64,000 nt of DNA from Eledone cirrhosa (taxonomy: Eukaryota). The notes under the pieces are model-generated. The model was not told where the DNA came from. It did no database searches and saw only the letters and a list, made by a program, of their open reading frames with translations. The DNA lies in NCBI GenBank assembly GCA_964016885.1, contig OZ024743.1, positions 123,504,001-123,568,000 of the forward strand, written 5' to 3'. This document shows, piece by piece, positions 18,410 through 20,854 of this stretch (positions are counted from its first letter, which is position 1; each line of letters starts with the position of its first letter). The position numbers and the translations under genes were made by a program.

Positions 18410-18472
<63 letters not shown>

Positions 18473-18689
18473 AATTAAGTTAAAGTGTACATCTACATAT
18501 GTATACGGAAGTATTAGTATGCATATAAATACACACATGTATACATATGTACATGTACTCAGTTTTTCACTAGACACTTTACAGTGAGTGTCAGCTAGTC
18601 TGTATGTAACCACACAGACGGACCGGGTTTTAGAGTCATACGAGTTTTCAAGGAAACACATTTCCTCTATTCTCCAGAGGGCCAGAAGG

Positions 18690-18734
18690 AATATTGGACT
18701 AGTTTCGATGTTATTACATCTCATCAGCAATATT
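18690..18734 (-). ncRNA. Minimal type I hammerhead ribozyme (unit 1)
   Basis: aatattg CTGATGA gatgt-aata-acatc GAAA ctag TC caatatt on the minus strand. Confidence 0.9.
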
Positions 18735-19158
18735 AACCCATCTTCCGGCTTCTTTGGAGAATTGTAAAAGCACATATCGTTATATGCTTTTTCTATGAAA
18801 ATTAGTAGTGGGTAGACTAATTTGCATAGAACGTGAGTCATTGTACGCACCGGTTCAGCGGAAACGATAAAAACAAATAACGAAACGAAATTAAATTTCG
18901 TTTCGCTTCTAACTCACTTTTGTATGACTGACGCTTAAACAATTAAGTTAAAGTGTACATCTACATATGTATACGGAAGTATTAGTATGCATATAAATAC
19001 ACACATGTATACATATGTACATGTACTCAGTTTTTCACTAGACACTTTACAGTGAGTGTCAGCTAGTCTGTATGTAACCACACAGACGGACCGGGTTTTA
19101 GAGTCATACGAGTTTTCAAGGAAACACATTTCCTCTATTCTCCAGAGGGCCAGACAGG

Positions 19159-19203
19159 AATATTGGACTAGTTTCGATGTTATTACATCTCATCAGCAAT
19201 ATT
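19159..19203 (-). ncRNA. Minimal type I hammerhead ribozyme (unit 2)
   Basis: Identical motif. Confidence 0.9.
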
Positions 19204-19627
19204 AACCCATCTTCCGGCTTCTTTGGAGAATTGTAAAAGCACATATCGTTATATGCTTTTTCTATGAAAATTAGTAGTGGGTAGACTAATTTGCATAGAA
19301 CGTGAGTCATTGTACGCACCGGTTCAGCGGAAACGATAAAAACAAATAACGAAACGAAATTAAATTTCGTTTCGCTTCTAACTCACTTTTGTATGACTGA
19401 CGCTTAAACAATTAAGTTAAAGTGTACATCTACATATGTATACGGAAGTATTAGTATGCATATAAATACACACATGTATACATATGTACATGTACTCAGT
19501 TTTTCACTAGACACTTTACAGTGAGTGTCAGCTAGTCTGTATGTAACCACACAGACGGACCGGGTTTTAGAGTCATACGAGTTTTCAAGGAAACACATTT
19601 CCTCTATTCTCCAGAGGGCCAGACAGG

Positions 19628-19672
19628 AATATTGGACTAGTTTCGATGTTATTACATCTCATCAGCAATATT
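19628..19672 (-). ncRNA. Minimal type I hammerhead ribozyme (unit 3)
   Basis: Identical motif. Confidence 0.9.
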
Positions 19673-20096
19673 AACCCATCTTCCGGCTTCTTTGGAGAAT
19701 TGTAAAAGCACATATCGTTATATGCTTTTTCTATGAAAATTAGTAGTGGGTAGACTAATTTGCATAGAACGTGAGTCATTGTACGCACCGGTTCAGCGGA
19801 AACGATAAAAACAAATAACGAAACGAAATTAAATTTCGTTTCGCTTCTAACTCACTTTTGTATGACTGACGCTTAAACAATTAAGTTAAAGTGTACATCT
19901 ACATATGTATACGGAAGTATTAGTATGCATATAAATACACACATGTATACATATGTACATGTACTCAGTTTTTCACTAGACACTTTACAGTGAGTGTCAG
20001 CTAGTCTGTATGTAACCACACAGACGGACCGGGTTTTAGAGTCATACGAGTTTTCAAGGAAACACATTTCCTCTATTCTGCAGAGGGCCAGACAGG

Positions 20097-20141
20097 AATA
20101 TTGGACTAGTTTCGATGTTATTACATCTCATCAGCAATATT
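20097..20141 (-). ncRNA. Minimal type I hammerhead ribozyme (unit 4)
   Basis: Identical motif. Confidence 0.9.
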
Positions 20142-20344
20142 TACCCATCTTCCGGCTTCTCTGGAGAATTGTAAAAGCACATATCGTTATATGCTTTTTC
20201 TATGAAAATTAGTAGTGGGTAGACTAATTTGCATATAACGTGAGTCATTGTACGCACCGGTTCAGCGGAAACGATAAAAACAAATAACGAAACGAAATTA
20301 AATTTCGTTTCGCTTCTAACTCACTTTTGTATGACTGACGCTTA

Positions 20345-20848
20345 AAGCGAAACGAAAGTTAATTTCGTTTCGTTATTTGTTTTTATCGTTTCCGCTGAAC
20401 CGGTGCGTACAATGACTCACGTTCTATGCAAATTAGTCTACCCACTACTAATTTTCATAGAAAAAGCATATAACGATATGTGCTTTTACAATTCTCCAGA
20501 GAAGCCGGAAGATGGGTAAATATTGCTGATGAGATGTAATAACATCGAAACTAGTCCAATATTCCTGTCTGGCCCTCTGGAGAATAGAGGAAATGTGTTT
20601 CCTTGAAAACTCGTATGACTCTAAAACCCGGTCCGTCTGTGTGGTTACATACAGACTAGCTGACACTCACTGTAAAGTGTCTAGTGAAAAACTGAGTACA
20701 TGTACATATGCATACATGTGTGTATTTATATGCATACTAATACTTCCGTATACATATGTAGATGTACACTTTAACTTAATTGTTTAAGCGTCAGTCATAC
20801 AAAAGTGAGTTAGAAGCGAAACGAAATTTAATTTCGTTTCGTTATTCG

Positions 20849-20854
<6 letters not shown>
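20345..20854 (+). repeat. Inverted ~1.1-unit copy of the 469-bp monomer, ending in (TA)n
   Basis: Reverse complement of the array; starts and ends at the cgaaacgaaa..tttcgtttcg hairpin. Confidence 0.95.
20519..20563 (+). ncRNA. Minimal type I hammerhead ribozyme (inverted unit); predicted cleavage after GUC at 20556
   Basis: Helix I 20519-25/20557-63, CTGATGA 20526-32, helix II 20533-46, GAAA 20547-50, palindromic ctag. Helix I is extended by attctccagag/ctctggagaat. Confidence 0.92.

What the first reader, a model, noticed from the sequence alone, without database searches (positions are those of the whole stretch)
18468..20854. 469-nt retrozyme-like unit: five intact hammerheads in a tandem + inverted array
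Seen: four head-to-tail 469-bp units and one inverted unit lie between (TA)n tracts. Each has a perfect minimal type I hammerhead (7-bp helix I, CUGAUGA, 5-bp helix II, GAAA, palindromic CUAG helix III, GUC site) and a long helix I extension. The monomer has other hairpins (aaaagcatat/atgtgctttt, cgaaacgaaat/atttcgtttcg, gtatgact/agtcatac) and no credible ORF. Known: minimal hammerheads with palindromic helix III are typical of PLE pseudo-LTRs and cleave best as dimers, and metazoan non-LTR retrozymes are tandem hammerhead repeats processed to monomeric circular RNAs. Inference: this is a young, non-autonomous, PLE-mobilised retrozyme that could yield a 469-nt linear or circular RNA. I cannot tell whether the family is already catalogued.
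Basis: partly seen in the sequence, partly recalled or inferred. Interest (0 to 1): 0.85.

Follow-up and report, generated by a model that had tools for sequence, protein, structure and literature searches.

The report
Two-armed hammerhead retrozyme, Penelope footprint
This is one young copy of a small non-coding jumping repeat in an animal (probably octopus) genome, whose five units each carry a predicted self-cutting RNA motif and whose back-to-back layout suggests it was pasted in by a Penelope-type retrotransposon enzyme; the kind of element is already known.

Summary
Observation confirmed: four tandem units (468, 469, 469, 469 bp) and an inverted 508-bp arm lie between (TA)n tracts, with five identical hammerhead cores and no ORF. 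One correction: the ribozyme is the canonical newt/axolotl-type type I hammerhead (weak palindromic helix III), not the PLE 'minimal' type. The family is real beyond this locus. Tandem 467-469-bp units occur in other sequencing runs, and their substitutions avoid breaking the predicted RNA fold (3 of 23 versus 9.1 expected, P about 0.001). The layout matches Penelope-like (PLE) insertions: inverted 5' copy, both 3' ends outward in (TA)n, ends 66-71 nt apart. No end lies at the cut site, so the template was a ligated circle or an uncut multimer. The left arm is four whole turns within 4 nt. Best reading: a non-autonomous retrozyme mobilised by a PLE enzyme (about 0.7); circular template about 0.45. 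Cleavage, expression and the partner PLE are untested, and no genome was available. The kind is known, and this scan's notes already describe similar arrays on other DNA of the same genome. Verdict: new member of a known kind.

The parts
18441..18469 (.). left (TA)n tract, likely insertion target; 2-nt overlap with the element's 3' end
18468..20346 (-). left arm: four head-to-tail units, ribozyme sense on the minus strand; 1875-1879 nt, i.e. four units plus 0-4 nt
18468..18935 (-). unit u1 (468 nt, 1-nt deletion); shares two variants with u2 and u3
18936..19404 (-). unit u2 (469 nt)
19405..19873 (-). unit u3 (469 nt), identical to u2 over the 440 nt compared
19874..20346 (-). unit u4 up to the junction; two private variants
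18690..18734 (-). type I hammerhead of u1, predicted cut after 18697
19159..19203 (-). type I hammerhead of u2, predicted cut after 19166
19628..19672 (-). type I hammerhead of u3, predicted cut after 19635
20097..20141 (-). type I hammerhead of u4, predicted cut after 20104
20316..20346 (.). centre of the palindrome: 29-nt unpaired spacer and 2-nt microhomology (20345-20346) joining the two 5' ends
20347..20855 (+). inverted right arm: one unit plus 39-42 nt, ribozyme sense on the plus strand
20519..20563 (+). type I hammerhead of the inverted arm, predicted cut after 20556; best Rfam ribozyme match Hammerhead_HH9 (31.8 bits, below gathering score 52)
20490..20586 (+). hammerhead with its long, bulged helix I extension (predicted)
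20787..20855 (+). stretch by which the right 3' end exceeds the left 3' end (66-71 nt), holding a strong hairpin (20815-20843); likely counterpart of the PLE 'tail'
20853..20894 (.). right (TA)n tract; 3-nt overlap with the element's 3' end

Best explanation
This is one recent insertion of a 469-nt non-coding, hammerhead-bearing repeat, most likely a non-autonomous retrozyme that was likely reverse-transcribed into a (TA)n tract by a Penelope-like (PLE) RT-endonuclease supplied in trans. Shown: the layout, the five intact cores, the lack of an ORF, and tandem relatives in other runs. Inferred: (1) tandem arrays are transcribed through; (2) the hammerheads, too weak alone, cut as dimers and release 469-nt monomers that a host ligase may close; (3) the PLE enzyme cuts both strands of (TA)n and starts reverse transcription at two internal sites 66-71 nt apart, one from each side of the break; (4) the two cDNAs join at their 3' ends through 2 nt of microhomology, giving two arms whose RNA 3' ends face outward. 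The template carried seamless cut junctions, so it was a ligated circle (about 0.45) or an uncut multimer.
For: Layout: tandem copies plus an inverted 5'-adjacent copy, unequal 3' ends and a (TA)n target match the PLE description in PMC8557442 (passages). PMC11167929 shows in vitro that a PLE protein cleaves and extends both strands of AT-rich DNA and starts at two internal RNA sites that define the tail. Ribozyme: full-model match to Rfam HH9, E 3.6e-6. The active monomer fold is 7.4 kcal/mol above the minimum and the palindromic helix III duplex is -4.8 kcal/mol, as for the dimer-dependent axolotl HHR_Amex1. Family: contigs that close on themselves at the unit length in X1 (499 nt) and X6 (497 nt), 798 contigs laid in X2, and 53 reads across the tandem junction among 3079 laid in X23. 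Selection on RNA fold: 3 of 23 substitutions break a predicted pair versus 9.1 expected, P = 0.00085; no listed variant falls in the CUGAUGA or GAAA boxes (28 rows not shown). The left arm begins and ends in the same register, 0-4 nt over four units. PLE-type RT and GIY-YIG genes exist in the window.
Against: No cleavage or RNA data. Only 1 of 9 Xenopus retrozyme dimers cleaved in vitro. The anole PLE hammerhead needed protein, and uncut RNA was the main substrate. No PLE in the window shares sequence with the unit (best such hit 17 nt, E 0.32), so the partner is unidentified. The end offset (66-71 nt) is longer than the 30-40-bp tail in the papers. u1-u3 share two variants absent from u4 and the inverted arm, so one circle copied in one event with no later change does not fit. 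Many relatives have altered ribozymes: C20556T in 336 of 528 and A20553G in 181 of 528 X23 reads, and T20545A, which breaks helix II, in about 23% of summed X2 depth. The end geometry rests on one locus. The fold test uses a structure predicted from this copy and variants shared among related runs. The Rfam score is below the gathering threshold.
Confidence: 0.7

Rival explanations
1. PLE-mobilised, but from uncut multimeric transcripts: the hammerhead is an inherited or protein-dependent feature and no circle is involved.
For: No end lies at the cut site and all five cut junctions are seamless. In the anole PLE, uncut RNA is the dominant substrate and ribozyme mutants insert normally. The active fold is disfavoured by 7.4 kcal/mol. 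The arms carry different variants, as a mixed source array would.
Against: The left arm is a whole number of units within 4 nt (about 1% by chance, noticed after the fact). The whole unit folds as a compact structure that relatives conserve. Circles are shown for coral, mussel and axolotl retrozymes.
Confidence: 0.3
2. A short original insertion was enlarged at the DNA level: u1-u3 arose by later tandem duplication and the inverted arm by fold-back copying of the first cDNA.
For: u1-u3 share two variants and show no further substitution over 3 x 440 nt, while u4 and the inverted arm have two private ones each (P = 0.0025 for 0 when 6 are expected). A 29-nt loop with 2-nt microhomology at the centre fits snap-back priming.
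Against: The same variant pattern fits three turns on one RNA molecule, with other molecules templating u4 and the right arm. The right arm lacks u4's variants. This rival changes copy number and second-strand steps, not the retroposed origin.
Confidence: 0.2
3. The unit is simply the pseudo-LTR of an autonomous PLE, and this locus is a 5'-truncated insertion of it.
For: Retrozymes of Xenopus are homologous to PLE pLTRs (24 of 57 families hit TEs, nearly all PLEs). The layout is that of PLEs.
Against: Unit joins unit directly, with no ORF sequence, here and in X1, X2, X5, X6, X7 and X23. The ribozyme lacks min-HHR features, whereas the pLTR of a PLE in this window shows them (29261). Share of laid contigs running into unlike sequence is 0 in X2 and X6 and 0.07 in X5.
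Confidence: 0.1
4. Assembly artefact: a collapsed or expanded repeat with a false inversion.
For: Near-identical tandem and inverted copies between microsatellites are hard to assemble; I could not see reads spanning the locus.
Against: Three distinct variant sets among the five copies, sharp junctions with microhomology, and tandem joints in independent runs.
Confidence: 0.05

Closest known systems
Metazoan non-LTR retrozymes (coral, mussel, axolotl; PMC7229834, parts 2-4 of 6 read plus passages; supplement not readable)
   Same: Non-coding tandem unit, one type I hammerhead per unit, low GC (37%), compact predicted fold. Helix III is one pair capped by a palindromic tetraloop, as in axolotl HHR_Amex1. 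PLEs are present in the same genome.
   Different: 469 nt versus 170-400 nt RNAs (150-450-bp repeats) in that paper. Inverted arm and (TA)n target: the word 'inverted' does not occur in its main text. Expression, cleavage and circles untested here.
Vertebrate retrozyme survey (bioRxiv 10.64898/2026.07.22.740005, parts 1-3 of 5 read; supplements not seen)
   Same: Meets its definition of an active retrozyme (two or more consecutive units with complete hammerheads). Length lies within its 51-972-bp range. It proposes PLE origin and mobilisation.
   Different: No molluscs sampled. Its PLE link rests on co-occurrence and pLTR homology, not on insertion ends. Here no homologous pLTR could be identified.
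Penelope-like element insertions (PMC8557442, passages; PMC11167929, parts 1-2 of 4 read)
   Same: Tandem copies, an inverted 5'-adjacent copy, a tail on one end, microsatellite or AT-rich targets and internal RT starts. Non-autonomous head-to-tail Chlamys derivatives are described.
   Different: No ORF; whole-unit tandems; end offset 66-71 nt rather than 30-40 bp.
PLE minimal hammerheads (PMC4209133, parts 1-2 of 4 read)
   Same: Type I, palindromic positions around loop 3, predicted to act as dimers.
   Different: Helix II is 4-5 bp not 7-8, helix I is 6-7 bp plus a long extension not 4-5, and there is no extra base before helix II.

Membership tests
metazoan non-LTR retrozyme | short head-to-tail genomic repeat with a type I hammerhead in each unit | tested here: met
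metazoan non-LTR retrozyme | non-coding, low GC, no terminal direct repeats of LTR type | tested here: met
   longest ATG ORF 64 aa; no Pfam hit for the 170-aa frame; GC 0.37; PBS and PPT were not searched for
metazoan non-LTR retrozyme | highly self-paired monomer fold | tested here: met
   z -9.8 and -8.6; 3 of 23 variants break a pair versus 9.1 expected
metazoan non-LTR retrozyme | multi-copy family beyond one locus | tested here: met
   tandem relatives in other runs, many variant contigs in X2; copy number in this genome not measurable
metazoan non-LTR retrozyme | self-cleavage of the RNA | not testable with these tools
   needs an in vitro assay
metazoan non-LTR retrozyme | accumulates as linear and circular monomer RNA | not testable with these tools
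   needs northern blot or RNase R RT-PCR; no RNA reads could be laid
PLE-mobilised insertion | tandem copies with an inverted 5'-adjacent copy | tested here: met
   versus PMC8557442
PLE-mobilised insertion | 30-40-bp tail on one end from two fixed RT start sites | tested here: inconclusive
   offset present but 66-71 nt; one locus cannot show that the sites are fixed
PLE-mobilised insertion | AT-rich or microsatellite target | tested here: met
   (TA)n on both sides; such tracts are frequent in this window, which weakens the test
PLE-mobilised insertion | sequence shared with an autonomous PLE's pLTR | tested here: inconclusive
   none in the 64-kb window; genome not available
autonomous PLE | ORF with RT and GIY-YIG endonuclease | tested here: not met
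PLE minimal hammerhead (min-HHR) | long helix II, short helix I, extra base before helix II | tested here: not met
   versus PMC4209133
Rfam Hammerhead_HH9 (RF02275) | score at or above gathering threshold 52 | tested here: not met
   31.8 bits, E 3.6e-6, whole model matched

The most novel reading that the evidence does not exclude
The locus is a genomic record of rolling-circle retrotransposition: a dimeric PLE enzyme primed from both sides of a (TA)n break at two internal sites of ribozyme-made circular RNA, ran whole turns round the circle (three identical units from one molecule, stopping at its own start register), and joined the two cDNAs back to back. Sister copies would carry strand-biased A-to-G editing marks from the RNA stage.
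Probability: 0.3. Interest if true: 0.65.

Novelty: new member of a known kind. Interest (0 to 1): 0.4.

Why it matters
PLE mobilisation of animal retrozymes and copying from circular RNA are proposed in the papers read but not shown there from insertion ends. A young, two-armed insertion with defined ends gives exact RNA start sites and a 469-nt substrate for an in vitro PLE assay, and extends retrozymes to a probable cephalopod. The class, the ribozyme type and the PLE layout are each already described, and this scan's notes list many similar arrays, so this locus adds one family rather than a new concept.

Tried and rejected
Own genome: not held, so no copy number, end survey or partner search was possible. 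Rfam at gathering threshold: 0 hits in the window; the miRNA matches are TA-rich hairpin noise. Exact-pattern scans for the ribozyme core: 0 in viral contigs and 0 in metagenome contigs. Sequencing runs: no RNA holder listed among 24 rows. I laid 8 of the 24 runs. X7, X8 and X10 gave only 151-nt pieces of the unit, so I take them as traces and not as evidence of host range or horizontal transfer. X1 (depth 2.4) may be a trace or the source sample. Read pile-ups at 20361 and 20778 in the RAD run coincide with TTAA sites and were rejected as element ends. A shared 3' motif with the element at 22290-22610 was not significant (score 42 versus 37.7 +/- 3.1 in shuffles). I first read the u4/inverted-arm agreement as a shared haplotype; the other runs list no variant at those two sites, so it is probably the common state. 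A-to-G excess on the sense strand: 23 versus 9 T-to-C places in X23 (P = 0.013) but 3 versus 5 in the contig runs; few loci and unknown direction, so kept as a hint only. Earlier notes by sequence and by relatives returned nothing. Paper searches for a cephalopod retrozyme or an inverted retrozyme insertion listed none; unread supplements of PMC7229834, PMC4209133 and the bioRxiv preprint may hold such cases.

Full report
Observation. The structure is as described. TRF reports a 469-bp period with 4.0 copies at 18468-20346. Units start at 18468, 18936, 19405 and 19874, and an inverted arm at 20347-20854 is 99.0% identical over 508 nt. The first unit is 468 nt. (TA)n tracts flank both ends. All five copies carry the same hammerhead core, with predicted cuts after 20556 on the plus strand and after 20104, 19635, 19166 and 18697 on the minus strand. 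A strict descriptor finds 5 such motifs in the window and 0 in 200 locally shuffled windows. The longest ATG-started ORF is 64 aa. The monomer folds far better than shuffles: z -9.8 linear and -8.6 circular.

The ribozyme. Rfam gives no hit at gathering level. At E-value level the best ribozyme match is Hammerhead_HH9, whole model, 31.8 bits, E 3.6e-6, threshold 52. That alignment reads a 6-bp helix I, an internal loop, a 4-bp helix II and a 6-nt loop 2. PMC4209133 (parts 1-2 of 4 read) calls this layout canonical and describes PLE minimal motifs with a long helix II, a short helix I and an extra base before helix II. The dimer prediction stands. Helix III is one A-U pair capped by the palindromic loop CUAG, as in the dimer-dependent axolotl HHR_Amex1 (PMC7229834). 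Forcing the active monomer fold costs 7.4 kcal/mol, and the self-complementary hexamer gives a -4.8 kcal/mol duplex. My inference is that the long helix I extension could slow the strand exchange a dimer needs. Cleavage cannot be assumed: 1 of 9 Xenopus dimers cleaved.

The family elsewhere. No genome is held. The run search listed 24 runs, 20 holding part of the unit and 5 holding half or more of its words. I laid 8. X1 has a 499-nt contig that closes on itself at 469 nt with 2 listed differences, at depth 2.4. X6 has a 497-nt self-closing contig (467-nt unit). X2 has 798 contigs on the unit and X5 has 42, sharing one set of variants with X6. In the RAD run X23, 3079 of 12.5 million reads lie on the unit and 53 cross the tandem junction. 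The unit is thus a tandem, multi-copy family under at least three organism labels (B, C, D) whose copies differ from the window's. Of the 27 variant rows I tested 23; I dropped 20505, 20581, 20649 and 20711 as low-depth, single-run or window-private. Of these, 15 are unpaired, 5 keep a pair and 3 break one, against 9.1 breaks expected (P = 0.00085). The variants are shared among related runs and the structure comes from this copy, so this is supportive, not conclusive. Against uniform activity, many relatives have changes at the cut triplet, in helix III or in helix II.

Insertion anatomy. In ribozyme sense, both arms point outward and their 5' ends meet at the centre, with a 29-nt spacer and 2 nt of microhomology. 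In the coordinates of the inverted arm, the left 3' end maps to 20784-20786 and the right 3' end to 20852-20855, so they differ by 66-71 nt; both overlap the (TA)n by 2-3 nt. PMC8557442 (passages) describes PLE insertions as partial tandems with an inverted 5'-adjacent copy and a 30-40-bp tail, and names (TA)n as a preferred Naiad target. PMC11167929 shows a PLE protein cutting and extending both strands and starting at two internal RNA sites that define the tail. The match is close, except that the offset here is longer. None of the four ends lies at the cut site and all five cut junctions are seamless. A cut linear monomer copied from the left start site would give only about 230 nt, so the template was a ligated circle or an uncut multimer, barring scarless template jumps. 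The left arm starts and ends in the same register, 1875-1879 nt against 1875 for four units. That is natural for whole turns on a circle and about 1% likely at random, but I noticed it after the fact and at one locus.

What the copy differences say. u1-u3 share two variants and have no other substitution over 440 nt each. u4 has two private variants there and the inverted arm has two, plus one in its tail. If all five copies had aged equally, u1-u3 should show about six substitutions (P = 0.0025 for none). Either u1-u3 are a later duplication, or the insertion is very recent and drew on three RNA templates, one copied three times. One locus cannot decide. X23 shows 23 A-to-G versus 9 T-to-C places (P = 0.013), but the contig runs show 3 versus 5. 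This is a hint only.

Context and host. The window holds decayed PLEs. An RT at 26670-27413 has homologues with RT and GIY-YIG domains; named animal hits among the 120 listed are bivalves, at up to 70% identity. Two related GIY-YIG-type C-termini lie at about 17050-17265 and 28670-29008 (the GIY-YIG reading is by eye, as Pfam gave no match). None shares significant sequence with the unit. 'Octopus' comes from earlier notes (unchecked) and from my recall of an octopus-type SINE near 14320-14410; my own calls do not establish the host, and TE homologues are weak evidence of it.

Mechanism and odds. Non-autonomous retrozyme mobilised by a PLE enzyme: about 0.7. Within that, a circular template about 0.45 overall and an uncut multimer about 0.3. 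Later DNA-level duplication or fold-back may explain part of the layout (0.2, not exclusive). A plain pLTR of a coding PLE is 0.1 and an artefact 0.05.

Novelty. The class is published (PMC7229834; bioRxiv 10.64898/2026.07.22.740005, with units of 51-972 bp). My searches listed no paper on a cephalopod retrozyme or on inverted retrozyme insertions; supplements were not seen and may bear on this. This scan's notes hold 24 findings with these key words in at least 3 genomes, including 466-, 467/468- and 470-bp arrays in the same genome. I could not compare their sequences, and those notes are not independent support. I reuse their term 'two-armed'. Verdict: new member of a known kind, interest 0.4.

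Noticed in passing
window 22914-24264: A second non-coding tandem/inverted element between microsatellites (arms 22971-23410 and 23823-24262, 96% complementary). It carries a hammerhead-like motif at 23907 (+) with a 5-bp helix II, a 39-nt loop 2 and a palindromic helix III; Rfam finds no ribozyme there.
   Followed up: partly
window 27898-29465: 5'-truncated PLE-like element (399-aa frame 27809-29008, GIY-YIG-like by eye) with about 100-bp inverted ends, nested in another PLE. Its 3' region has a minimal-type hammerhead remnant at 29261 with an extra base and a 6-bp helix II.
   Followed up: partly
window 25126-27900: Frameshifted PLE RT gene (Neptune-like by eye) starting right after a long (TA)n tract; homologues carry RT and GIY-YIG domains. 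A candidate clade for the mobilising enzyme, but no sequence link to the unit.
   Followed up: partly
window 17050-17700: 3' fragment of a PLE, 50% identical over 64 aa to the end of the 27809-29008 frame, with a decayed hammerhead-like remnant near 17633.
   Followed up: partly
window 22210-22610: Element in TA-rich sequence with a long inverted repeat and a 3' stretch resembling the unit's terminal hairpin; similarity not significant against shuffles.
   Followed up: partly
window 32990-33030 (minus strand, core at 33023): Another hammerhead-like core with an extra base, a 4-bp helix II and the same CUAG palindrome.
   Followed up: no
window 41900-44250: Old, broken PLE-like RT gene, Hydra-clade-like by eye; no Pfam hit.
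   Followed up: no
window 49360-49783: 45-bp tandem array (8.8 copies, 98%) built from a 29-bp subunit.
   Followed up: no
window 24510-24545: Half hammerhead (CUGAUGA box only) cut off by a (TA)n tract.
   Followed up: no
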